Assembly: GCA_902476365.1 (NCBI GenBank)
Contig: CABSCZ010000005.1
Span: forward strand, 7,009-71,008
Reading direction: 5' to 3'
Length of the DNA: 64,000 bases
Source: an uncultured Prevotella sp.
GTDB lineage: Bacteria > Bacteroidota > Bacteroidia > Bacteroidales > Bacteroidaceae
Under the pieces are notes generated by a model, which did not search any database, had not been told where the DNA came from, and worked only from the letters and a program-made list of their open reading frames with translations. Shown piece after piece: positions 11,073-59,966 of the stretch. The position numbers were made by a program, and so were the translations under genes. The stretch's first letter is position 1; each line of letters starts with the position of its first letter.

Positions 11073-11884
11073 CCCTTACGATAGGCCTCGATAGCCTTCT
11101 CGACCGATCCATACATCAAGAGGATTCTCCGGGCATGCCCATACTCCAATCCTAGTTCGTTTACGATCATGCGCGTGCCTCGGTCGATGAGCTTTTGATT
11201 GGTGAGCTGCATGTTGACCATCCGGTTTCCCTTCACGCGTCCCAATTGGATCATGACCGTCGTCGAGATCATATTCAAGATCATTTTCTGCCCGGTTCCT
11301 GATTTCATGCGCGAAGACCCCGTTACGAACTCAGGACCCACAATCATTTCAATGGGCACATCAGCCTCTGCCGCCAAGGGCGTGCCAGGATTACTGGTGA
11401 TACACCCCGTCAGGATCCCATGCCTCTTGCACTCATGCAAGGCTCCCACGACATAAGGGGTTGTCCCTGAGGCAGCGATCCCGATGACCGTATCATTCTC
11501 ATTGACACGATGCCGGAGAAGTTCCACCCAACCCCGGTTAGGGTCATCCTCCGCATTTTCCACAGCATTGCGGAGTGCAACGTCTCCCCCGGCGATCAGC
11601 CCAATGACGTGATGGGGATCCATGCCAAAGGTTGGAGGGATCTCAGAAGCGTCGAGGACCCCTAACCTACCGCTCGTGCCCGCTCCCATGTAGAAGATGC
11701 GCCCGCCCTTCTTCATCTTAGGCACGATCTGATTGACCAGCGTCTCTACCTGCGGGATGACCTTCTCGACAGCCAAAGCCACTTTCTTGTCCTCGGTGTT
11801 GATATCCACCAACAATTCGTGCACACTCTTCTCCTCCAAATGATCATAGAGGGAAGGCTGCTCCGTAATGTTCACGAAAGCCAT
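11069..11884 (-). CDS. murQ: N-acetylmuramic acid 6-phosphate etherase (SIS domain)
   Basis: SIS glycine-rich motif [24 protein letters not shown] (matches E. coli MurQ [22 protein letters not shown]), plus AVENAEDD and [15 protein letters not shown]. The ORF-track start at 12049 is TTG. The first ATG is at 11882-11884 (MAFVNITEQ...). Confidence 0.85.
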   Translation of the reverse strand: [271 protein letters not shown]

Positions 11885-11895
11885 ATCAGCAAGCG

Positions 11896-12741
11896 TTAGA
11901 TTTTTCCCGTATGATAGTCGACCAGTCCTTCCATCGGTGCCTGGATGATCCTGCCCAAGGACATTCCCTCCGCCTTGAGGGCTTTCTCCAAGGGATCGCG
12001 ATAGAAATAGGCGATGGAACCATTGAATCCGATCGGCAACTGGTCCCAATGGTCATATTGCTTGACATTGCGGACGAGGAAGCTTCTGAAAGCAGTGACC
12101 ACCAAGTTCTCGATACAGGGTTCCGAGAGGTTTTCTTGCAAGAAGGGCACGAAACTTGCCAGGAAGCGATTGGGCAGTTTCTGGCGGTAGACACGGTCGA
12201 TGATCTCTGCCTGAGAGAGGTGGAATCGCGCATGGAAGCGCTCGCAGATAGACGCGGGCAGCTGATGCTTCAGCACATCCCCCACCAGGGTCTTCCCCAA
12301 GACGGCCCCACTGCCCTCATCGCCGAGGATAAAGCCCAATGGCGATACATTCTTCGTGATTCTCTCCCCATCATAGGAACAGGAATTACTGCCTGTGCCC
12401 AAGATGCAGGCGATACCCGGCTGATGACCGCAAAGGCTGCGGGCAGCCGCCAACATGTCCGAAGCCACCTCACAACGGCCCTTGACATGGATAAACTGCC
12501 TCAGGGCCCTTTCCACGATCGGTTGCTTTTCGGGCGTACAGCCAGCTCCATAGAAGAACACGTCCTGGATCTCTTTCGAGGGGAGCTGCGGCAAAAGAGC
12601 TGTCTGGATTTCCCCGGCTATTTCCTCTTCCGTCTGGAAGAAGGGGTTCGTGCCTCGTGTCTTGATGGTCAGGGGAGATCTCCCCTCCTCCCACACGCAC
12701 CAATCTGTCTTGGTCGAACCACTGTCTGCTAACAATATCAT
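11896..12741 (-). CDS. murK: BadF/BadG/BcrA/BcrD-type sugar kinase, MurNAc/GlcNAc kinase-like
   Basis: N-terminal ATPase motif MILLADSGSTKTDW and a second motif ILGTGSNSC are present. Adjacency to murQ and an AmpG-like permease matches the Tannerella murK context. Confidence 0.75.
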   Translation of the reverse strand: MILLADSGSTKTDWCVWEEGRSPLTIKTRGTNPFFQTEEEIAGEIQTALLPQLPSKEIQDVFFYGAGCTPEKQPIVERALRQFIHVKGRCEVASDMLAAARSLCGHQPGIACILGTGSNSCSYDGERITKNVSPLGFILGDEGSGAVLGKTLVGDVLKHQLPASICERFHARFHLSQAEIIDRVYRQKLPNRFLASFVPFLQENLSEPCIENLVVTAFRSFLVRNVKQYDHWDQLPIGFNGSIAYFYRDPLEKALKAEGMSLGRIIQAPMEGLVDYHTGKI

Positions 12742-12744
12742 ATC

Positions 12745-14091
12745 TTAATGTTTTTTAGAGTTTTCCTTTCCATAGCTCGCGTCCACTGCCTGTCGCACGA
12801 AGAAGGTAACGGCTACCGTGGCAAGACAGCAGAAGATCACCATCCAGAAGAAGCCTGGATAGCCTAACCACTCTTGCAGGTAACCGGCGAACATGCCGGG
12901 GACCATCATGCTCAATGCCATGAAGGCAGTACAGATGGCGTAGTGGGCGGTCGTGAACTCACCCTCGGAAAAATACATCATGTAGAGCATGTACGCGGTA
13001 AAGCCGAACCCATAGCCAAATTGTTCGATCGCCACGCACGTACTGATCACGACGATGTTGGTGGGATGTGCCATGCTCAGGTAGACGAAGGTAGCGCAGG
13101 GCAATGTCATGCAGGCTGCCATGGGCCAAAGGGATTTCCGCAGTCCCCACCTTGAGGCGGCAATGCCTCCGATGATGCCGCCAATGGTCAGGAAGAGCAC
13201 GCCAATGGTACCATAGACGACCCCCACCTCTTGGGTGGAGAGGGCGAGCCCTCCACTTTCCACAGACCCTAAGAGGAATGGGTTGACCATTTTCAGCAGG
13301 AATGCCTCTGGCAAGCGGTAGAGCAGCATGAACACGATGGCGAGCCACACGCCGGGCTTGCGGAAGTAGGTAGAGAAGGTGCGGCAAAACTCGCGGACGA
13401 TTTCCTTTGCCTGCCCGGTCTTGCTCTCGCCCAAGCGAGGGGCATCCGCCGCAGGATGGGGGATGACGAAGGCGTGGTAAAGGGAAAGTGCCGTGAACAG
13501 GATGGCGGAGATACCCATCGTCACCTGCCATGCCAAGGGGATATTCCGGGTAGAGGCCTCCAAGACGCCGGCAATGTACACCAGCACGCCTTGCCCGAAG
13601 ATGGACGACAGGCGGTAGAAGGTGCTGCGTATCCCGACGAAGAACGATTGATCTTCCTGGCTCAAGGCGAGCATATAGAAGCCATCGGCGGCAATGTCAT
13701 GGGTGGCTGACGCAAAGGCTGAAACGACAAAGAGGACCAGCGTGAAGGTGAAGAGTCCCACCGGTGTTTGCCGTGCTTGTATGACGGAATCGGCAGGATG
13801 GGGGATGGACAATGTCAGCAAGATGAAGGCCGCACTCATCAGAAGCTGCATGGCAACGATCCACCAACGCTTGGTCTTCACGATGTCCACGAACGGGCTC
13901 CACAAAGGCTTGATGGTCCAAGGAAGGTACAGCAGGCTGGTGAAAAGTGCCATTTTACCATTCGGCACCCCCATCTTCGTGAACATGGTCACCGAGATGT
14001 TGTTGACAATGAAATAGGGCAGTCCCTCGGCAAAATAAAGCGTTGGGATCCATGCCCACAATAACCGGTTTGACGAGTGAATCTTTCCCAT
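12745..14091 (-). CDS. AmpG-family MFS permease (muropeptide / anhydro-MurNAc-type transporter)
   Basis: N-terminus LYFAEGLPYF...LYLPWTIKPLWSPFVD...KRWWIV resembles the E. coli AmpG N-terminus (GLP...LWSPLMD). About 12 predicted TM segments. ATG at 14089-14091. Confidence 0.75.
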   Translation of the reverse strand: MGKIHSSNRLLWAWIPTLYFAEGLPYFIVNNISVTMFTKMGVPNGKMALFTSLLYLPWTIKPLWSPFVDIVKTKRWWIVAMQLLMSAAFILLTLSIPHPADSVIQARQTPVGLFTFTLVLFVVSAFASATHDIAADGFYMLALSQEDQSFFVGIRSTFYRLSSIFGQGVLVYIAGVLEASTRNIPLAWQVTMGISAILFTALSLYHAFVIPHPAADAPRLGESKTGQAKEIVREFCRTFSTYFRKPGVWLAIVFMLLYRLPEAFLLKMVNPFLLGSVESGGLALSTQEVGVVYGTIGVLFLTIGGIIGGIAASRWGLRKSLWPMAACMTLPCATFVYLSMAHPTNIVVISTCVAIEQFGYGFGFTAYMLYMMYFSEGEFTTAHYAICTAFMALSMMVPGMFAGYLQEWLGYPGFFWMVIFCCLATVAVTFFVRQAVDASYGKENSKKH

Positions 14092-14094
14092 GCC

Positions 14095-15567
14095 TTACTT
14101 GCCCTGGTTCATCTTGATCCGCGCCATCAGTTCCCAGGTACGGATGCGGTCCTTGTACAGGTTATTCCGGTTGTTCTTCTCCACGGAGAGCGCGGCGTCT
14201 GAGTTGTCATCCCACCGGCGGCAATTGTAGACGGCATCATAGATGCGCCCGATCTGGTAATGGCGCGAGATGGCCAAGCCGAGCGCATAGTCTTCCCCAT
14301 AGTTGACATTCGGCAGGAGGGTGTCGCGCACGATGGGGGTAAAGAAGGCCCGGGGGGCACCTAATCCATTGATGCGCAGCGCATTGTTACGTCCATTCTC
14401 CGGTGTCCACTCCCGATGGTCTACCTTTCCGGGCGGAAGAATGTTCAAATGGATGTCCGTGAGCATATAGGAGCCGATGACCATGGCGCACTCCTGGGCA
14501 TAGAAGGCATCCACCATCTTCTGCAAGGTATCCGTTCCGGAATAGACATCATCGCTGTCCAACTGGACCAGGAACCTGCCGCACTTGGGATGATGGGCTG
14601 CCATATTCCAGCTCCCCCCTACCCCTACATCACGACGGGTGGGGATCAGGTGGACTATACGGTCGTCGTGGATGGAGTCGATGGCTTCGGTCGTGCCATC
14701 TGTCGAATGGAAGTCTGGCCCATTCTCGACCACGAACACATTATACTTGAAACTCGTCTGCTGGCTTAAGGCACTCTCAATGGCGTCCTTGATCGTGCGG
14801 ATCCGGTTGCGGACAGGGATCATGACGGATGCTTCCACCTCGAAGTCGCCTTCGCGCAAGGGCACCTTGTCGAAGACGGGCTTCAGGTAGCCGCCCACCT
14901 CTTTCAGGTAATCCGTGCAAGCCTGTTCCATCTCTATCTGCGAAGCCCGGTTGCGGGGGTCTACATAGTCGAAGAGCTTCTCCCCCGTCTTCCTGTTGTC
15001 AAGCTCCACCTCAGAATAGAGGTACTCGTTGACATGCACGAAGCTCACCTTCTCCGCCAACTTCAGGCGCAGGTCGTAGAACCCGGCAGCCTGATAGTAG
15101 CTCGTCATCCTCGCAGCAGCCTCCTTCAGGGCTGAGGTACGGATGAGGAGGACTGACCCGAAGTCAAAGTCATCCCGGAGCGATCCCATCTGATAGTCGA
15201 TGACCGGGGCTTCCGAACGCTTGCCGTCGGCTGATATCTGGTAATGGTCGGCATAAAGCATACCAGCATCCGTGTCCTCCATGACGTGGACCATTCGCTC
15301 CAAGGCATATAGTCCCATCTCCAAGGACTGCTCCTTCATGTACAGCAAGGTGAAGGGAGCCTTTGCCTCTGCGGCGACAGCCCGCATCGTGCGACTGCTT
15401 TTCAACGTATCTATTCCCAGCACGCCATCCACGCCTGCCACGTCTGCCTTTGCCGACTGCATGACAAGGATACGGCTGACCAGTTCATTGCCTTTTAGGC
15501 TTTCCAAGGTTTTCGCCAGTTCTTCCTTGCCTGCCATGGGAAGGAAGCAATCTATCAATTGTCTCAT
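14095..15567 (-). CDS. family 2 glycosyltransferase (two-domain)
   Basis: GT2 motif VMIPVRNRIRTIKDAIESALSQ and DxD-like LDSDDV are present. The stop lies 3 nt from the downstream AmpG-like start. Confidence 0.7.
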   Translation of the reverse strand: MRQLIDCFLPMAGKEELAKTLESLKGNELVSRILVMQSAKADVAGVDGVLGIDTLKSSRTMRAVAAEAKAPFTLLYMKEQSLEMGLYALERMVHVMEDTDAGMLYADHYQISADGKRSEAPVIDYQMGSLRDDFDFGSVLLIRTSALKEAAARMTSYYQAAGFYDLRLKLAEKVSFVHVNEYLYSEVELDNRKTGEKLFDYVDPRNRASQIEMEQACTDYLKEVGGYLKPVFDKVPLREGDFEVEASVMIPVRNRIRTIKDAIESALSQQTSFKYNVFVVENGPDFHSTDGTTEAIDSIHDDRIVHLIPTRRDVGVGGSWNMAAHHPKCGRFLVQLDSDDVYSGTDTLQKMVDAFYAQECAMVIGSYMLTDIHLNILPPGKVDHREWTPENGRNNALRINGLGAPRAFFTPIVRDTLLPNVNYGEDYALGLAISRHYQIGRIYDAVYNCRRWDDNSDAALSVEKNNRNNLYKDRIRTWELMARIKMNQGK

Positions 15568-15678
15568 TTTGCTATTTTGTTTTTTATGATCCTTCTGTCT
15601 TCAGGCCCGCTCCATTGACAGCGGACTGCCTTGACCGTGCAAATATACGGAAAAATCTGTTCTTATGGGTGCTTTCCC

Positions 15679-16419
15679 TCATTTTTCAGCCATCTTTTTC
15701 TTCCCATGCGCCTTGAAGAGCACGTCGGTGAGCCAATATCCAAGCTCGGTGGCGAGGATGCCGATGCCTGCGCCCACGATCACGTCCGACAGCCAGTGCT
15801 TGTCGTTTGCGATACGCATGAGCCCTGTCATCGTGGCGACGCCATAGCCACCGATGCCCACCCAGGGGCTCAGGTGTCCATATTCCTTGCTGAGCATCGT
15901 GGCAGTCATGAAGGCTGCCGCCGTATGCCCTGACGGAAAACTTTGTCGGTCGCTGCCGTCTGGGCGGCGGACATGAACCGAATGCTTAAGGGCCAACAAG
16001 GTGGCTGACATCAATGCCGTAGAGGTGGCATCGCTCAGGAGCATCCGATCCCAGGGACTGCGACTGGGAACACCCGCTACCTTCAAGCCTACCATCACGG
16101 CAGCTGGTGCGAAGCGCAGGTAGTCATCGACCGCACAATGGAAATGGGGCATCAAGTCGTCGCGTCCATGGTGAACAGGCTTGTCCAAAGACGTGGCGAC
16201 CAGCCCTCCCACAATGAGGGGAACGCCCACATGGGTAGCCTGGTAGAGACGCGACTGCGCCATCCGGTCGGTCCATTTCAACGACGGCATGGAGTCCTGT
16301 TGCTGCATGGCAGCCATACTGTCCCCATGGCATAGGGAATTTCCTTGTCCATAGACAGGACTTGCCTGCCAGCAAACAGGGAAGGTGAGGAGGAGCATCA
16401 GTCCTATAAGATACTTCAT
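15679..16419 (-). CDS. PAP2-family (acid phosphatase / lipid-phosphate or undecaprenyl-PP phosphatase-like) membrane/periplasmic protein
   Basis: All three PAP2 motifs are present: KHSVHVRRP, PSGH and MRIANDKHWLSD (SRxxxxxHxxxD). Confidence 0.8.
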   Translation of the reverse strand: MKYLIGLMLLLTFPVCWQASPVYGQGNSLCHGDSMAAMQQQDSMPSLKWTDRMAQSRLYQATHVGVPLIVGGLVATSLDKPVHHGRDDLMPHFHCAVDDYLRFAPAAVMVGLKVAGVPSRSPWDRMLLSDATSTALMSATLLALKHSVHVRRPDGSDRQSFPSGHTAAAFMTATMLSKEYGHLSPWVGIGGYGVATMTGLMRIANDKHWLSDVIVGAGIGILATELGYWLTDVLFKAHGKKKMAEK

Positions 16420-16503
16420 CTGCCTTTCATTCTTTTTGAAGGCAAAGATAATACAGAATTTTGGATAAATACGATAGATTAGCGCGAAAAGGTTGCTTAC
16501 TTT

Positions 16504-23400: not shown

Positions 23401-23722
23401 GAAGGGTGATCACCATCCTGCCCGTCGGCTTCAACGTCTGGGTAGTAAAGCCTACATAAGAGACACGGATGGAATGGCCCTTGCCTTCAAGTTTCAAAGT
23501 GAAGTTCCCGTTCACATCACTGACTGCGGCATTGTGCGTGCCTTCCTCAACGATGCTGGCGCCAACGATAGGCTCACCCTTCACATCCTTTACCACTCCC
23601 GTTACTTGGTCAATGGCAAGATTCTCCTCTATGGGCTCAGGTTCCCCACCTTCTCTTGCAGAAGAAGGCAATGCGGGAAGGACTGAAATGAGAAGTGCCA
23701 CTAAAACAATCTTTTTATTCAT
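20411..23722 (-). CDS. SusC/RagA-family TonB-dependent outer-membrane transporter (no STN signalling domain)
   Basis: 1103 aa with a signal peptide. A carboxypeptidase-regulatory-like domain (GVVKDVKGEPIVGASI) is followed by a plug and barrel. C-terminal ...FNFGVQVMF. Confidence 0.9.
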   Translation of the reverse strand: MNKKIVLVALLISVLPALPSSAREGGEPEPIEENLAIDQVTGVVKDVKGEPIVGASIVEEGTHNAAVSDVNGNFTLKLEGKGHSIRVSYVGFTTQTLKPTGRMVITLQEDSHSLQELVIVGYQKIRKTDVIGAVASVKASELNTSTNSIGESLVGKVAGVQIAQVSGAPYNSTKIRVRGTASINASSDPLYVIDGYPSSGDLLLDPEDIASIEVLKDAASAAIYGSRAAGGVVIITTKRGQTGKARVGYDFQLGVSSLAKKVKLLNAAQFADLVVDGRNNYYKRLLTSKGIAWDDSYYSDTNTQRATRLGSSNSAVNIPEFLYDFANQKVITPEYDTDWQDELYRTAISQRHHITVNGGTDKVRYDLSGSFMDLDGIVRSSQQRRLNFRGNIDAQISSRFNVGANFSHVSNWNHEIDEGRFDHGPILGALIYAPVFRCYDDDGNLVKGEMTSYSSRYGFQQIENPVALAEETKIRRNGDRNTYNLNLSYEPLKDLFLKANVGMYTYYEKYEYYRPTSLSYGSYQPGSAQAQAAAYAIATSAHTNDYLGEFTANYDKTWAGIHHFSGIVGYSIQKHEYDILGAKGTGFEDDHIKEVTGHGADPSDVSLYNTSKSNWSMLSYFSRLSYNYRSTYYLTLSLRGDGSSLFGPENRWGYFPSVSLAWTVSNEPFYNALFGNNSTLKLRASWGKSGNNNIGNYNYEAVMSSPEGALFGSGTVYSGVEPGGVKDNTIGWESTSQYNFGADLSLFNNRLAISANYYLSYTRDLLFEQPISAIGSTNSILTNLPNSKIRNCGLDLQVDGRVISTKDFHLTASGNLSINRNKVLDLDGGNTLIVNGAERSYKTHITEIGQPIGMFYGFKVAGMVRESDMANIAEDDKYYNATTHSFPEGYKLKGPARSLSQSMPLQAGDLYFEDVNGDGVVDDNDKTIIGNPHPKFTYGFNISGDYKSLDFSASFNGSYGNKVLDGQDYYLFNMEGSGNQYVEVDSRYRSESNPGNGWVYSASRGGTQSNSTRLSTFYLQSGSFFRCTNLTIGYSLPSVSKLTGGVLSKLRLYVAADNLFTITKYKGYNPEVDYNNGANLTPGVDYGKYPLSKSFNFGVQVMF

Positions 23723-23850
23723 AAAAAAACAATACTTTTGTTTACGACTGCAAAAGTATCATGATTATTTTTCAATAAGATTTCAGTCTTTTTACGTTTT
23801 TGTGTGGATTCGCTTGCCTGCCGCTGCCGACCCAATGGAGGGGATAGCAC

Positions 23851-56255: not shown

Positions 56256-57682
56256 GACATAATTCTTTGAATGACAATTTTCGATCATATATACTTGTTG
56301 CATTTCTAATCTTATCATTTACAATGCAAGGGCAGACATTAAAAGGAGGTATTTCCTTTAAGATGTTGCGACAAATAGAGAATGCCCAGCCCAAAAGCCC
56401 TACACTGAAGGGTCTTCAGCATTCAATGGCATCCAACAATATTGACAGCCTTGCCCTAAACGCTTCTCGTTTGGAGCAAACAAATCCCCATTTTATGTAT
56501 GAAACCGTAAAACAGAATATCCAAAATCAATATGAGAGTGGACGCTGCTGGTGCTTTACTGGACTAAATGTGCTCAGGGGCGCTTTTGCCAAAGCACACC
56601 AGGATACAATGACCGTAGAATATTCTCGTGCTTACTTGTACTTTTATGACCAATTGGAAAAGTCCAACTTGATGCTTCAAGGTTGCATCGATACCGCCTA
56701 TAAACCAATGGATGATACTCGTGTTACATTCTTTTTTAAGAAGCCTCTTCATGATGGCGGTACATTCTGTGGCATCATTGACTTGATTCGCAAATATGGT
56801 CTTGTTCCTGCCTCTGCACAGCAAGAAACCTATCAAGCAAATCACAATAAAAAGATCACGCAGCTATTAAATAGGAAATTACGGATGTTTGGACTCGAAT
56901 TACGCAGGATGGTCCATGAAGGGCAAACAGAAACATCCATCACTAAGCGAAAGACAGAGATGTTAGGAATAGTCTACAATATGCTTTCTTTAGCTGTAGG
57001 AACTCCTGTGAAGCATTTCAAATATGCCTTTAAAAATGCACAAGGCCAACCGGTAACACAGGAAAGAGAATATACTCCTATGACGTTTTATAAGGCGACC
57101 ATAGGAGAGTTGAATTATGATGATTACATTATGGTAATGAATGATCCTCGGCGACCATATTACAAGACCTACAAGGTTCTATATGCACGCCATCTCTATG
57201 ATGGACATGACTGGAAATATCTTAACCTCCCAATGAAAGACATTGAAACTATAGCCGTTGCAAGTATCAAAGATGGTATAAAGATGTATAGTTCTTATGA
57301 TTCCGAGAAACAACGTAATAACAGTACTGCTTATTGTGATTTAGACAATTATAATTACGACAGTCTTTTCGGAACTTCCTTCCAGATGAGCAAGGCTGAT
57401 CGTATCTCTACCTATGATAGTGGCTCAACCCATGCTATGGCATTGACTGCTGTTGACCTCGATGCACAGGAGAACCCTATAAGATGGAAAGCAGAAAACA
57501 CCTTTGGCCCTGGCTTCGGCGTCAATGGAGGATATGTTATTATGAGTAACCGATGGTTTGAAGCATATATGTTTCGTTTGGTAGCCTTGAAAAAATATGC
57601 CCCAACATCCTTAGTAAAGGCATACGAGCAAGAACCTACTGGGGTCTATCCTGAAGATCCATTGTTTGGGGAAGATCGATGA
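56252..57682 (+). CDS. pepC: aminopeptidase C / bleomycin hydrolase (peptidase C1B), secreted
   Basis: Active-site motif QNQYESGRCWCFTGLN. ATG at 56252 gives a signal (MRHNSLNDNFRSYILVAFLILSFTMQGQ). It overlaps the upstream stop by 4 nt. Confidence 0.8.
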   Translation: MRHNSLNDNFRSYILVAFLILSFTMQGQTLKGGISFKMLRQIENAQPKSPTLKGLQHSMASNNIDSLALNASRLEQTNPHFMYETVKQNIQNQYESGRCWCFTGLNVLRGAFAKAHQDTMTVEYSRAYLYFYDQLEKSNLMLQGCIDTAYKPMDDTRVTFFFKKPLHDGGTFCGIIDLIRKYGLVPASAQQETYQANHNKKITQLLNRKLRMFGLELRRMVHEGQTETSITKRKTEMLGIVYNMLSLAVGTPVKHFKYAFKNAQGQPVTQEREYTPMTFYKATIGELNYDDYIMVMNDPRRPYYKTYKVLYARHLYDGHDWKYLNLPMKDIETIAVASIKDGIKMYSSYDSEKQRNNSTAYCDLDNYNYDSLFGTSFQMSKADRISTYDSGSTHAMALTAVDLDAQENPIRWKAENTFGPGFGVNGGYVIMSNRWFEAYMFRLVALKKYAPTSLVKAYEQEPTGVYPEDPLFGEDR

Positions 57683-57793
57683 AGGATAATGGCGTGTACA
57701 TCACAGGCTATGATGATTGGCTTGAGACCGGTGAAAAACTTATTGTCGCGGTAGCAGAATCCAATCTGGATTTGTACATGAGATTTTTTATCC

Positions 57794-58294
57794 TATAGGT
57801 TGACAGGTTGTCAAATCCCAGTGTTTATCGGGCTTGCAACCTGATTTTAGGTTGTCAAAGGTTGACACGAGGTTGACAGAAAAAGCACATCTTCCGCTAA
57901 ATTCTCGAGAGAATTTATTGGACCACTTATGCTTTTGCTTTGCAATACATCCACGATTGGATAAAATTCTCTCGAGAATTTTGCATGATAGCTTTACATT
58001 TTATATACTGATCATGATATGGATTGACATGGAACGTTTTCGTTCAGCCAAATGAGCAGAGCCAAGCTTGGGACTCTACCATGGCGAGAAAATGTGCGCG
58101 AAAGCGAGCAACTGAAAATGCGGTGCATGTATCGCTCCGTGAGACGCAAAGGGCATGAATGAAGGAGGAGCATACAGCCCCATAGATGCTATGCCGTGGA
58201 AGAAAATGACGAGTGAAGTTGGCAACCTCGTGGCAACCTTTGACAACCTAAAATCAGGTTGCAAGCCCGATAAACGCTGGGATTTGACAACCTG
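57794..58294. mobile_element. MITE-like element / possible invertible segment: ~335 bp core flanked by ~84 bp near-perfect terminal inverted repeats
   Basis: The left inverted repeat is 57794-57877. The right inverted repeat is 58213-58294; its reverse complement matches the left at about 80 of 84 positions. Both repeats contain nested GGTTGTCAAA / GGTTGACA subrepeats and an internal palindrome (GGTTGTCAAATCCC...GGGCTTGCAACC). The core also has a palindromic pair AAATTCTCGAGAGAATTT / AAATTCTCTCGAGAATTT. Confidence 0.6.
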
Positions 58295-58426
58295 CCAACC
58301 TATTTACAAAAAAATCACTATGGACTATAAAATTGTCCAAGAAAAGAAACCTACATGGAAGATCTTTGGTTAGAAAAAAGCACCTACAATTTGCGTTTTC
58401 CACCTACTCGATTAAACAATACGAAA

Positions 58427-58456
58427 AAGAGGATGCATCAGGATTTTGACGCATCC
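58427..58456 (-). terminator. rho-independent terminator downstream of the sulfatase operon
   Basis: Stem GAGGATGC/GCATCCTC extends to ~11 bp with one mismatch. Loop GGATTT. The - strand T-run is CTCTTTTTCG. The stem sequence is the same as in the 5563..5598 terminator. Confidence 0.5.
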
Positions 58457-58483
58457 TCATTGTCAGCTAAGAAATAATCTTTT

Positions 58484-59966
58484 CTATTTGGACAATTCGA
58501 GCATAGGGACATCTCTCATCAGTTGTTTTTGTAAACGTGCTGCAACATTCGGATAAGAAATCACCATATTATGCAATTCAGATGGATCCGTGCTAAGGTC
58601 ATAAAGTTCTGGTCCCATCCTCCCTTGATGTGGGATAAATTTCCAAAAACCTGACCTCACTGCTATCTTACCACCATTATTCTGCGTGAGGACATAATCG
58701 CGATATAAAGGCGCATTTTCTTTCAAAAACAAAGCTGAGCCATCGCGACTATCTTGGCATTCCTCTTCTGTGATCGGTAAGTCCAAAAGCCTTGCTAATG
58801 TCGCTAACATGTCAATATAACAATAGTTCTGCCGCTGTATAAAATGACGTTGTATACATTTTGGCCATGAGACGATGAATGGCATTCGCGTTCCGCCTTC
58901 ATATAAAGAGTACTTCTCTCCATGTAAGCCTCCATAAGGGTCATGATGGTTAATATGTTCAAGAGCCCCATCCTCATAACCTTCCTTAACCATAGGACCA
59001 TTATCACTTGTGACTATAATAAGAGTGTTATCTAATATACCTTGTTCCTTCAAAGCTTTGACTATTTCCCCTACACAATAGTCAAATTCTTCTATAACAT
59101 CCCCATAGATACCAGCTTTTGATTTTCCACGGAAACATTTTGATGGCACTCGAGGTTCGTGTGCATTATTTGTAGCATAGTAAAGAAAAAAAGGAGAATG
59201 CACATGCTGACAAATATATTTTTTAGCTTTATCAAGTAAGGCCTCTGACATTTTTTCATCTTTCCAGAAAGCACTTATGCCACCATCTTGCCACCCTATA
59301 CGACTAATTCCATTAACAATAGTAGCATCATGTCCCAAATGAGGTTTAATCTTCAAAAGATCCGGTCTACAACGCCCCGTGGGCATATCGCCTATCTTAT
59401 GGCGGTAGGATACCAAGAGAGAGTCACCTTTTCTAAGTCGATCTACATGTGTGTTTTCTATAAAGACACAAGGAACACGATCATTCGTTGCTGGAAAATA
59501 ATAAGCATAACTAAATCCTATAGATAAAGGACCAGTGCCTATATATCCATTAAAATCTACAGGTCTTTCTTTTGTACCTAATCCCAAATGCCATTTGCCT
59601 ACAATAGCAGTGATATCCATTTCGTTTCATCAGAGAAGGCAAAGTAATTTTGGCAGTATCAATGCATAATGGCGCATCTGCAGGTAGTATTCCAACTTGC
59701 TTGCGCCAAGCATATTCACCAGTAAGCAAAGCATAGCGCGATGGAGACGAGGTAGAAGCTGGCGCATAGCAATTCGTGAAGCGAACCCCATGAGAAGCAA
59801 TAGAATCTATTGACGGCGTATTAATAAGATGTGCACCATAACAGCCGAGATCACCATATCCAATGTCATCGCCCAAAATAATAATAACATTGGGATGTTT
59901 ATAATTGTGAGCTGTAACTGTCTGCCTATTAGCATGGAAAATAGATATGAGGCAGTTAATATTTGA
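58484..59966 (-). pseudogene. S1-family sulfatase, disrupted (internal frameshift, no start codon or signal peptide)
   Basis: The C-terminal 378 aa ORF (58484..59620) and the N-terminal fragment (59550..59876, carrying Ser-type CYAPASTSSPSRYALLTG) overlap in different frames. Upstream in frame the mature N-terminus KHPNVIIILGDDIGYGDL is reached, then a stop at 59967-59969 with no Met or signal peptide. Confidence 0.6.

What the first reader, a model, noticed from the sequence alone, without database searches (positions are those of the whole stretch)
57794..58294. Roughly 500 bp element with ~84 bp terminal inverted repeats between the two convergent PULs
The left repeat (57794-57877) and the reverse complement of the right repeat (58213-58294) match at about 80 of 84 positions. 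The repeats are internally repetitive (GGTTGACA / GGTTGTCAAA, containing TTGACA) and each has a nested palindrome. The core holds a second palindromic pair around CTCGAG. The element mirrors the start of two short ORFs (57834..58055 + and 58076..58264 -, both beginning MQPDFRLSKV). Candidate identities are a MITE, an IS remnant or an invertible DNA switch. Bacteroidales use inverted-repeat-flanked invertible promoters, though usually with much shorter repeats.
Basis: seen in the sequence. Interest (0 to 1): 0.65.

Follow-up and report, generated by a model that had tools for sequence, protein, structure and literature searches.

The report
Gene-less miniature of a Prevotella primase-helicase cassette
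The 500-bp inverted-repeat element is real and is one copy of an apparently undescribed, widely scattered Prevotella repeat family whose long arms are arrays of 8-bp protein-binding boxes, and whose full-length relatives carry a primase-helicase gene rather than a transposase.

Summary

It is not unique. About 109 distinct flanking contexts were found, all intergenic, and several copies occur per sample.

- **Arm structure.** Each arm holds five GGTTG(A/T)CA boxes, three of them at 10-11 bp spacing, plus one inverted half-box that forms an imperfect hairpin.
- **Core structure.** The core holds two 18-bp palindromes, AAATTCTC-NN-GAGAATTT, 47 nt apart.
- **Full-length relatives.** In rumen Prevotella contigs the same arms and palindrome pair bracket a 685-694 aa VapE-type primase-helicase gene, usually followed by an HU-HIG gene. 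One contig (L179) shows that gene internally deleted.

I therefore read the window's element as a gene-less, MITE-like miniature of that cassette, with iteron-like arms.

- **Not supported: invertible switch.** 8 of 8 contigs of this locus show one orientation, and no recombinase is nearby.
- **Not supported: IS remnant.** There is no similarity to intact IS1380-family elements.
- **Open points.** No transposase and no target-site duplication were found, so how the element spreads is unknown.

The parts
57775..57797 (+). Left outer segment (TACATGAGATTTTTTATCCTATA). It is conserved in other copies, and similarity to other copies starts at about 57771-57782.
   Evidence: Start positions of matches to 116 related loci; five-copy alignment A3.
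57798..57878 (+). Left arm. Boxes GGTTGWCA lie at 57798, 57806, 57850, 57860 and 57871. An inverted half-box TTGCAACC at 57834-57841 pairs with box 2 to form an imperfect hairpin.
   Evidence: In 118 non-redundant arms, 110 carry a further box that the search pattern did not require, and 111 carry the inverted half-box. 87% of hairpin cells are paired, but covariation is weak.
57899..57916 (.). Palindrome op1, AAATTCTC-GA-GAGAATTT.
   Evidence: I2. It is conserved in five independent gut copies, in rumen short elements, and upstream of VapE genes.
57917..57963 (+). 47-nt spacer between the two palindromes. The same spacing is kept in the rumen short element L148 and in the VapE cassette L247.
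57964..57981 (.). Palindrome op2, AAATTCTC-TC-GAGAATTT. In the VapE cassette L247 the equivalent site lies about 40 nt upstream of the VapE start codon.
58032..58100 (.). P module, an imperfect palindrome centred on AAGCTT. It is shared by gut copies and by an insertion in an IS613-like pseudogene on pMMCAT plasmids.
   Evidence: Two contigs of this locus end at about 58069-58078, and a third switches to unrelated sequence there.
58126..58219 (+). Variable segment. It is shared only with copy L221 and is absent from L176, L263 and L186. It holds no detectable VapE remnant.
58220..58300 (-). Right arm, with the same box layout as the left arm. The free base of three boxes is G or C instead of A or T.
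58301..58336 (-). Right outer segment (the reverse complement reads ACAATTTTATAGTCCATAGTGATTTTTTTGTAAATA). It is conserved in many 'R-type' arms.
58337..58382 (.). Spacer shared with a subset of copies (L149, L195, L197/L216, L210, L214).
58419..58461 (-). Terminator-like hairpin (12-bp stem and T tail) just downstream of the sulfatase gene. Homologous hairpins (86-88% identical in three of the four loci) lie next to arms or cores in four other loci, so it behaves as another module of the family.

Best explanation
The element is a non-coding, non-autonomous member of a modular repeat family that is dispersed through the chromosomes of gut and rumen Prevotella.

**What is shown**
- The unit is a roughly 100-130 bp arm: an outer segment, two GGTTGWCA boxes, a hairpin made with an inverted half-box, and three more boxes at helical (10-11 bp) spacing.
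- Two such arms in inverted orientation bracket a control region with two 18-bp palindromes 47 nt apart.
- In full-length relatives the same arms and the same palindrome pair bracket a VapE-type primase-helicase gene. One arm lies upstream of the palindromes and promoter region, and the other lies directly after the stop codon. An HU-HIG DNA-binding gene usually follows.
- One contig (L179) preserves that gene with a 1.8-kb internal deletion.

**What is inferred**
- The short elements, including the one in the window, are gene-less miniatures of that cassette.
- The boxes are binding sites for a cassette-encoded or cassette-associated protein. They would be iterons in the sense of plasmid P1 incC-repA-incA or phage P4 ori-alpha-crr.
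- The two palindromes are operators of a dimeric regulator.
- The miniatures persist and spread because they keep these cis sites and are acted on in trans. Recombination between copies then shuffles, halves and deletes modules.

**In this window**
The element sits passively between the 3' ends of two polysaccharide-utilisation loci, beside the sulfatase terminator. How new copies are inserted is not known.
For: **Family and copy number**
- Of these, 116 carry true arms 71-98% identical to the window's.
- 133 arms fall into 109 different outside-flank clusters. The arrangement is 22 short pairs, 2 long pairs and 55 single arms with at least 1 kb of inner sequence.
- One sample holds at least 6 contigs with arms (ERZ779941, similar coverage), and the ULNB01 assembly that also holds the window's locus has at least 12.

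**Constraint on the boxes**
- 110 of 118 arms have a box not demanded by the search pattern; chance is about 2e-4 per arm. 111 of 118 keep the inverted half-box.
- Non-box columns of the arm alignment are only 38-80% conserved.

**Link to VapE**
- L247 (2154-4615), L180 (630-2976) and L224 have inverted arms around a 685-694 aa ORF with PF08800 and PF05272. PHROGs calls it DNA primase or helicase.
- The cores of short elements match the 85-bp op1-spacer-op2 region upstream of VapE.
- Homology between cassettes in different contexts stops at or near the outer ends of the arms.
- L179 is a cassette whose VapE gene keeps only its first 53 nt and roughly its last 200 nt.

**Gut subfamily**
Five independent copies align over window 57775-58125 at 80-90% identity and then diverge.

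**Turnover between strains**
At the greA locus of one gut Prevotella species (identical GreA protein), strains carry either a single R-type arm or an arm-op1-op2-P unit in the opposite orientation. Contigs whose GreA is only 93-94% identical, probably related species, carry neither.

**Iteron analogy**
Arrays of GGTTGNCA at 11-bp spacing in more than 120 viral contigs lie inside DnaD-like or O-like replication-initiator genes in 8 of 8 tested.
Against: - No transposase or recombinase is consistently linked to the arms. An integrase is adjacent in 1 of 119 loci.
- No target-site duplication or clean empty site was found, and the outer boundaries are fuzzy, lying 0 to about 84 nt beyond the first box.
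- All VapE-containing relatives found belong to the rumen subfamily. None was recovered for the window's own gut subfamily. The window's core has no trace of VapE coding sequence, and the 64-kb window has no VapE, HU-HIG or integrase homologue.
- Single arms outnumber pairs, so the pair may not be the mobile unit.
- Binding of any protein to the boxes or palindromes is inferred, not shown.
- The box search pattern itself required four boxes, so conservation of those four is partly by construction.
- The source genome could not be searched as a whole. The species is absent from the representative-genome collection.
Confidence: 0.6

Rival explanations
1. It is an ordinary MITE. Its arms are terminal inverted repeats recognised by a DDE or other transposase encoded elsewhere in the genome, and the VapE cassettes are merely cargo captured between two arms.
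For: - It is small, non-coding, has inverted ends, and is multicopy and strictly intergenic.
- Several subterminal binding sites per end are typical of the Tn7, Mu and IS21 families (established knowledge).
- Loci of this family are hot spots for IS66, IS21 and IS4-like insertions.
Against: - No transposase gene was found between or next to arms in 119 loci. The only recurring gene families next to arms are VapE (7 loci) and the HU-HIG gene beside it (4-5 loci).
- There is no target-site duplication.
- Single arms are more common than pairs.
- The control region of the short elements is the VapE upstream region, which argues for descent from the cassette.
Confidence: 0.15
2. It is a relic, in place, of an integrated element's replication module (iteron arrays plus operators) that decayed where it stands. 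It has no mobility of its own and no present function.
For: - The internally deleted cassette L179 shows that decay in place happens.
- The element lies at a synteny breakpoint relative to Prevotella sp. RUG143.
- All contigs of this species carry it in the same state.
Against: - About 109 different contexts, mostly between housekeeping genes and with no other mobile-element debris, would need very many independent and equally precise decays.
- The boxes and palindromes remain intact across subfamilies that differ at about 25% of other positions.
- The window's flanks hold no integrase or other element genes.
Confidence: 0.12
3. The arms and core are transcribed and act as RNA or as transcription signals: a small RNA gene, a terminator or insulator between the two convergent loci, or an outward or inward promoter.
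For: - In three loci the unit is arm, 250-nt core, then a terminator-like hairpin.
- A strong terminator-like hairpin lies at 58429-58458, and there is a weak one in each arm.
- In cassettes, op2 lies just upstream of the VapE start, where a promoter must be.
- HU-HIG genes start about 23 nt from an arm's outer end.
Against: - Rfam gives no match even at E=1.
- The arm hairpin shows conservation but almost no compensatory change: 3 pairs with double changes, no better than shuffles.
- Single arms show no clear orientation bias towards neighbouring genes, roughly 26 against 19.
- No convincing Bacteroidota -7/-33 promoter could be placed by eye. No tool for that promoter type was available.
Confidence: 0.08
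4. It is an invertible DNA switch: the arms are recombination sites and the core flips to change expression of a neighbouring locus.
For: - Long inverted repeats flank a segment with promoter-like and operator-like sequences.
- Bacteroidales use many invertible promoters (established knowledge).
- The 2-bp centre of the core palindromes flips between GA and TC among copies.
Against: - 4 spanning and 4 partial contigs from different samples all show one orientation.
- Both neighbouring genes point towards the element, so there is nothing downstream to switch.
- No recombinase lies within about 10 kb, and there is no hit to an integrase probe in 64 kb.
- 55 arms occur singly.
- The segment between the palindromes is collinear in all five aligned copies.
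Confidence: 0.03
5. It is an internally deleted IS1380-family insertion sequence.
For: A 66-77 bp stretch of the core (58032-58100) is 79-81% identical to sequence inside an IS613-like transposase gene on pMMCAT plasmids.
Against: - That stretch is an extra roughly 63-bp palindromic insertion that splits the plasmid's transposase gene.
- Intact IS613, ISBf12 and IS942 lack it and share nothing with the element.
- The arms match nothing in 72,556 plasmids or 50,697 phage records.
Confidence: 0.02

Closest known systems
Bacterial MITEs and mosaic intergenic repeats (Correia/NEMIS elements of Neisseria, BIME/REP of enterobacteria, BOX and RUP of pneumococcus)
   Same: - Small, non-coding and multicopy.
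- Strictly intergenic, often at the 3' ends of genes.
- Inverted ends.
- Built from modules that occur in different combinations.
- They break short-read assemblies.
   Different: - The ends are unusually long (about 100-130 bp) and consist of five to six short boxes rather than one terminal repeat.
- No target-site duplication was found.
- The gene-bearing relative encodes a primase-helicase, not a transposase or a RAYT.
Iteron-controlled replicons in which the initiator gene lies between two iteron arrays (plasmid P1 incC-repA-incA, F ori2, phage P4 ori-alpha-crr). This comparison is from established knowledge.
   Same: - Arrays of short boxes at helical spacing, in both orientations, on both sides of a replication gene.
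- P4 alpha is likewise a primase-helicase that binds octamer repeats.
- A control region lies directly upstream of the gene.
   Different: - Here the arrays are near-identical inverted copies.
- They also occur without the gene at about a hundred chromosomal sites.
- No AT-rich unwinding element, DnaA box or replication activity has been shown.
VapE/VirE-type (BT4734-like N-terminal domain plus PF05272) primase-helicase genes next to HU-like genes in Bacteroidales genomes
   Same: The full-length relatives are exactly this gene pair.
   Different: - The window's element has lost the genes altogether.
- In the literature I could search, the flanking box arrays and palindrome pair are not described.
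[quoted passage not shown]
   Same: A non-coding intergenic repeat amplified to about 180 copies in a Prevotella lineage, with no known mobilising enzyme.
   Different: - PINSR is reported to have no terminal inverted repeats and to be confined to the oral P. intermedia group.
- Its sequence is only in a figure, so I could not compare it.
Bacteroidales invertible promoters (Mpi- or Tsr-dependent switches)
   Same: Inverted repeats flank a few hundred base pairs in a Bacteroidales intergenic region.
   Different: - The repeats here are several times longer.
- Only one orientation is seen.
- There is no recombinase nearby and no downstream gene to drive.

Membership tests
MITE | Short (under about 1 kb) and non-coding | tested here: met
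   The element spans about 550 bp. Its ORFs are mirror artefacts with no Pfam hit and no homologues elsewhere. Indels in the five-copy alignment do not respect a reading frame.
MITE | Terminal inverted repeats | tested here: met
   97-nt arms, 91% complementary. All 24 arm pairs found in related loci are in the same head-to-head orientation.
MITE | Many dispersed copies in one genome | tested here: inconclusive
   At least 6 and at least 12 contigs with arms occur in single metagenome assemblies, and about 109 contexts occur overall. The source genome itself could not be searched, and the 64-kb window holds one copy.
MITE | Target-site duplication flanking each copy | tested here: not met
   No consistent direct repeat was seen at the ends of 24 paired elements on inspection by eye. 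The boundaries are fuzzy.
MITE | Ends shared with an autonomous element that encodes a transposase | tested here: not met
   The only gene found between matching arms is a VapE-type primase-helicase. No transposase was found among 261 neighbouring ORFs clustered.
MITE | Presence/absence or structural polymorphism between close relatives | tested here: met
   At the greA locus, strains with an identical GreA protein carry two different module sets, and contigs whose GreA is 93-94% identical carry none. No clean empty site was recovered.
Invertible promoter switch of Bacteroidales | Both orientations present in a population | tested here: not met
   8 of 8 informative contigs from several human gut samples have the same orientation. 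Assemblies cannot exclude a rare minority orientation.
Invertible promoter switch of Bacteroidales | Site-specific recombinase nearby, and a gene downstream of the switch | tested here: not met
   Pfam labels of genes within about 10 kb on both sides show none. An integrase probe has no hit in the window. Both neighbouring genes converge on the element.
IS1380-family insertion sequence (remnant) | Similarity to the transposase gene or the ends of family members | tested here: not met
   No match to intact IS613, ISBf12 or IS942. The shared 66-77 bp is an insertion within a plasmid pseudogene.
Iteron-type replication control module | Three or more short boxes at helical spacing, conserved as boxes | tested here: met
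   Boxes 4, 5 and 6 are spaced 10 and 10-11 bp start to start. 110 of 118 arms keep a box that the search did not require.
Iteron-type replication control module | Adjacent gene for a replication initiator | tested here: not met
   There is none in the window. It is present in 7 related loci of the rumen subfamily.
Iteron-type replication control module | Initiator binds the boxes, and the DNA supports replication | not testable with these tools
   This needs binding and replication assays.
Known RNA families (Rfam 15) | Match to a covariance model | tested here: not met
   No match at E up to 1 over 57000-59000, on either strand.

The most novel reading that the evidence does not exclude
The arms are iterons of a VapE-type primase-helicase, and there are two unusual readings of the roughly one hundred gene-less copies per lineage.

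- **New mobile element.** They could be a new kind of mobile element, copied or moved through the action of a replication protein rather than a transposase.
- **Chromosomal decoys.** They could be chromosomal decoy arrays that titrate or 'handcuff' that initiator. This would control or exclude VapE-carrying elements, a form of chromosomally encoded incompatibility.
Probability: 0.15. Interest if true: 0.75.

Novelty: new variant of a known kind. Interest (0 to 1): 0.5.

Why it matters
- **Abundance and neglect.** Prevotella and Segatella are among the most abundant gut and rumen bacteria, yet their repeat content is barely described.
- **Practical effects.** A family with about a hundred intergenic copies breaks assemblies and sits at synteny breakpoints. 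It also differs between strains at the same locus. These effects bear on genome assembly, strain typing and the reading of rearrangements around polysaccharide-utilisation loci.
- **The unusual point.** The arms are box arrays shared with primase-helicase cassettes rather than with a transposase. This gives the widespread but uncharacterised VapE/HU-HIG gene pairs of Bacteroidales a candidate set of cis sites (GGTTGWCA arrays and a GAATTCTC-NN-GAGAATTC operator pair). These sites can be tested directly by binding and replication assays.

Tried and rejected
- **Rfam.** A scan of 57000-59000 at E up to 1 found nothing.
- **Exact 29-mer in species-representative genomes.** An arm 29-mer gave 0 hits in 185,579 genomes. 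The species is evidently not represented. The nearest relative of the flanking peptidase is a rumen Prevotella MAG at 90% identity.
- **Arms in public records.** They match nothing in phage and plasmid records, nor in IMG/VR. The two IMG/VR pattern hits are plain tandem arrays.
- **Protein trick.** Searching the 72-aa ORF that spans the right arm found only this locus.
- **IS1380 lead.** Followed through pMMCAT, IS613, ISBf12 and IS942, then rejected.
- **RNA structure of the arm hairpin.** RNAalifold prefers a different, equally invariant hairpin. My own structure is 87% paired but has no meaningful covariation.
- **Target-site duplications.** I inspected 24 paired elements by eye. A 9-bp repeat at L148 did not hold up in L163.
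- **Empty site for the window's own locus.**
  - All spanning contigs carry the element.
  - The sulfatase has no close orthologue outside the species; the next best is 65% identical.
  - The closest relative is rearranged exactly at this point.
- **VapE remnants.** A search of the window's core and of L176 and L221 gave only noise, E>0.7.
- **Promoters.** A Bacteroidota-type promoter could only be looked for by eye, and nothing convincing was placed. The sigma-70 scan is not relevant to this phylum.
- **Literature.** Full-text searches for the box sequences found only unrelated primers. A large MITE census (PMC11602168) mentions Prevotella MITEs but describes no such family.

Full report
**1. 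The observation**

The inverted repeat is real and slightly longer than reported. The arms are 57782-57878 and 58220-58316 (97 nt, 91% complementary), with 341 nt between them.
- Over the best 84 positions the arms differ at four sites. Three of these are the free middle base of an 8-bp box.
- A 24-mer from the arm occurs only at the two arms in 64 kb, with none expected by chance. All six adjacent pairs of GGTTGNCA boxes in the window lie in the arms, with 0.01 expected.
- The core holds two copies of an 18-bp palindrome, AAATTCTC-NN-GAGAATTT, at 57899-57916 and 57964-57981.
- The two short ORFs that begin with the same peptide are mirror images created by the repeat. They have no family match. 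The ORF across the right arm has no relative beyond this locus in 5.8 billion protein clusters.
- Rfam finds nothing.

**2. Setting**

- The element lies between the stop codons of a C1 peptidase (57682) and a sulfatase (58484). These are the convergent ends of two SusC/SusD loci.
- The organism is a human-gut Prevotella-like species. Exact copies of the flanking proteins occur only in human gut metagenomes. The nearest representative genome is a rumen Prevotella MAG, RUG143, at 90% protein and 91% DNA identity.
- Synteny with that MAG stops three bases after the peptidase stop codon and resumes elsewhere in the window in reverse. The element therefore sits beside a rearrangement breakpoint.
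- Four metagenome contigs span the element and four more enter it from the right. All have the core in the same orientation. Many others break inside the left arm or at a palindrome in the core.

**3. It belongs to a large family**

An exact 29-mer from the arm found nothing in 185,579 representative genomes, because the species is not represented there. I then searched metagenomes for the arm's architecture: two adjacent boxes, 28-44 nt, then two more boxes.
- 116 of the 119 carry true arms, 71-98% identical to the window's over 80-100 nt.
- The arrangement is 22 short inverted pairs (318-653 bp from first to last box), 2 long pairs, and 55 single arms with at least 1 kb of sequence on the inner side. 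The rest lie too near a contig end to classify.
- 133 arms have about 109 different outside flanks. In every locus where neighbouring ORFs could be seen, the arms lie between them rather than inside them.
- Single assemblies hold at least 6 and at least 12 arm-bearing contigs.
- The boxes are constrained. 110 of 118 non-redundant arms carry a further box that the search did not demand, and 111 carry an inverted half-box TG(N)CAACC. Other columns of the arm are 38-80% conserved.
- The half-box pairs with box 2 to give an imperfect hairpin. It is conserved, but there is no real covariation. I therefore treat it as a DNA feature, an inverted site, rather than an RNA structure.

**4. What the full-length relatives carry**

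Clustering the 261 ORFs next to arms gave just two recurring gene families. One is a 685-694 aa protein in 7 loci. The other is a 127-131 aa protein next to it in 4-5 loci.
- Pfam identifies the first as a BT4734-like N-terminal domain plus a VapE domain. PHROGs calls it DNA primase or helicase. The second is an HU-HIG DNA-binding protein.
- In L247, L180 and L224 the large gene lies between two inverted arms. One arm is 140-224 nt upstream of the start codon. The other overlaps or directly follows the stop codon.
- Between the upstream arm and the start codon of L247 lie two GAATTCTCTCGAGAATT palindromes separated by 47 nt. The second is about 40 nt before the ATG.
- Short gene-less elements of the rumen subfamily have the same arms and the same palindrome-spacer-palindrome module. 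So does the window's element.
- Homology between cassettes in different contexts ends at or near the outer ends of the arms. Contig L179 holds a cassette whose VapE gene is reduced to its first 53 nt fused to roughly its last 200 nt.
- This is the pattern by which miniature elements arise from gene-bearing ones.
- The window itself contains no VapE, HU-HIG or integrase homologue, and its core has no detectable coding remnant.

**5. The gut subfamily is modular**

- Five independent copies align over window 57775-58125 at 80-90% identity: outer segment, arm, op1, spacer, op2 and a palindromic P module. After that they diverge.
- One copy (L221) continues like the window into a second arm.
- One copy (L176) runs straight into the second arm.
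- Two copies (L263, L186) end in a terminator-like hairpin homologous to the one at 58419-58461 beside the sulfatase.
- The 2-bp centre of each palindrome is GA in some copies and TC in others, while the sequence between the palindromes stays collinear. This fits template switching in a palindrome better than site-specific inversion.
- The P module is also present, at about 80% identity, as a roughly 63-bp insertion that splits an IS613-like transposase gene on pMMCAT plasmids. Intact IS613, ISBf12 and IS942 lack it. This disposes of the IS-remnant idea.

**6. Turnover between strains**

I used GreA, which lies next to a single arm in L232, as a handle to fetch the same locus from many samples. 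Strains with an identical GreA protein carry different module sets:
- a single R-type arm next to the upstream gene's terminator hairpin;
- or an arm-op1-op2-P unit in the opposite orientation, which in some contigs also has an IS66-family transposase gene downstream of it, between the unit and greA;
- in one further contig (L269) an IS21 sits directly upstream of greA, and the arm region lies outside the fetched stretch.

The first two alleles look like complementary halves of a full element of the window's type. Contigs whose GreA is 93-94% identical, probably related species, have no arm there. The family is therefore gained, lost and rearranged on a within-species time scale. I did not recover a clean empty site.

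**7. How it most likely works**

*Shown.* The anatomy, the copy number, the constraint on boxes and palindromes, the shared arms and control region with VapE cassettes, the deletion intermediate, and the strain polymorphism.

*Inferred.*
- The boxes are binding sites for a cassette-linked protein, so they are iterons.
- The palindromes are operators of a dimeric regulator.
- The gene-less copies are maintained or spread because they keep these sites.

*Basis for the iteron reading.*
- The layout resembles array-gene-array replicons such as P1 incC-repA-incA, and P4 ori-alpha-crr, whose initiator is likewise a primase-helicase that binds octamers. This comparison rests on established knowledge.
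- The boxes sit at 10-11 bp spacing.
- GGTTGNCA arrays in more than 120 viral contigs lie inside DnaD-like or O-like replication-initiator genes in 8 of 8 tested. That pattern was selected by my query, and those phage arrays are a different system.

*Unknown.* The step that inserts new copies. I found no transposase, no consistent recombinase and no target-site duplication.

**8. Rivals**

| Rival | Confidence | Main reason |
|---|---|---|
| Conventional MITE with an undiscovered transposase | 0.15 | No transposase found next to arms; core descends from the VapE upstream region |
| In-place relic of an integrated element | 0.12 | Needs about 109 independent precise decays |
| Transcription signal or small RNA | 0.08 | No Rfam match, no covariation |
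| Invertible switch | 0.03 | One orientation in 8 of 8 contigs, convergent neighbours, no recombinase, many single arms |
| IS1380-family remnant | 0.02 | No similarity to intact family members |

**9. Novelty and score**

- Full-text searches for the box sequences found only unrelated primers.
- The described Prevotella repeat PINSR lacks inverted ends and belongs to oral species.
- A large automated census lists Prevotella MITEs without describing this family.

I rate this a new variant of a known kind: a MITE-like mosaic repeat with iteron-like ends whose gene-bearing relative is a primase-helicase cassette. Interest is 0.5. It is solidly real and unusual in its partner gene, but its mechanism is unproven and its effect at this locus is probably neutral.

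Noticed in passing
window 58484-59876 (- strand): The sulfatase next to the element is split into two ORFs. 59550-59876 matches residues 34-122 and 58484-59620 matches residues 123-489 of 492-aa homologues. No signal peptide is present, so it is probably a frameshifted pseudogene. The same 378-aa ORF is called in all metagenome contigs of the species.
   Followed up: partly
window 57685; 23505-23813; 11132-16425, compared with L144: Synteny with Prevotella sp. RUG143 ends three bases after the peptidase stop codon. It continues with window 23813-23505 and 16425-11132 in reverse. This implies an inversion of about 34 kb and a 7-kb indel between the two species. One breakpoint lies beside the element.
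   Followed up: partly
window 58032-58100; L139 3994-4069: The palindromic P module is about 80% identical to a roughly 63-bp insertion, flanked by an imperfect 15-bp repeat. That insertion splits an IS613-like transposase gene on the roughly 98-kb pMMCAT plasmids of Bacteroides, Parabacteroides and Phocaeicola. P may be a small mobile palindrome in its own right.
   Followed up: partly
L019-L138 (IMG/VR contigs): More than 120 viral contigs carry GGTTG(C)CA arrays at 11-bp spacing, next to a second repeat type (ccttacctatcc-like). The arrays lie inside 250-300 aa genes that PHROGs calls DnaD-like helicase loader or O-like replication initiator (8 of 8 tested). These are probably phage origins embedded in the initiator gene.
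   Followed up: partly
L265-L274, about 300-700 nt upstream of greA: The region between an OMP gene and greA in one gut Prevotella species is a hot spot. It carries two different arm-module alleles, IS66 insertions (L265, L266, L273) and an IS21 insertion (L269).
   Followed up: partly
L179 10049-10410: A VapE cassette with a 1.8-kb internal deletion. The first 53 nt of the gene are fused to roughly its last 200 nt, still next to the HU-HIG gene. It is an intermediate between the full cassette and the miniature.
   Followed up: yes
L002-L010, L012-L017 (contigs of the window's locus): Short-read contigs of this locus repeatedly end inside the left arm (window 57794-57846). Two more end at the centre of the P palindrome (about 58069-58078). 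A low-coverage contig (L014) joins unrelated sequence at that centre.
   Followed up: partly
window 57899-57916 and 57964-57981, compared with L176, L263 and L186: The central dinucleotide of each 18-bp palindrome is GA in some copies and TC in others, independently at the two sites. The flanking and intervening sequence stays collinear.
   Followed up: no
L247 5605-8219: Downstream of one VapE/HU-HIG unit lie an archaeal-type ATPase with DUF234 and a PD-(D/E)XK 'transposase' (PDDEXK_2) gene. They are not linked to arms in other loci.
   Followed up: no
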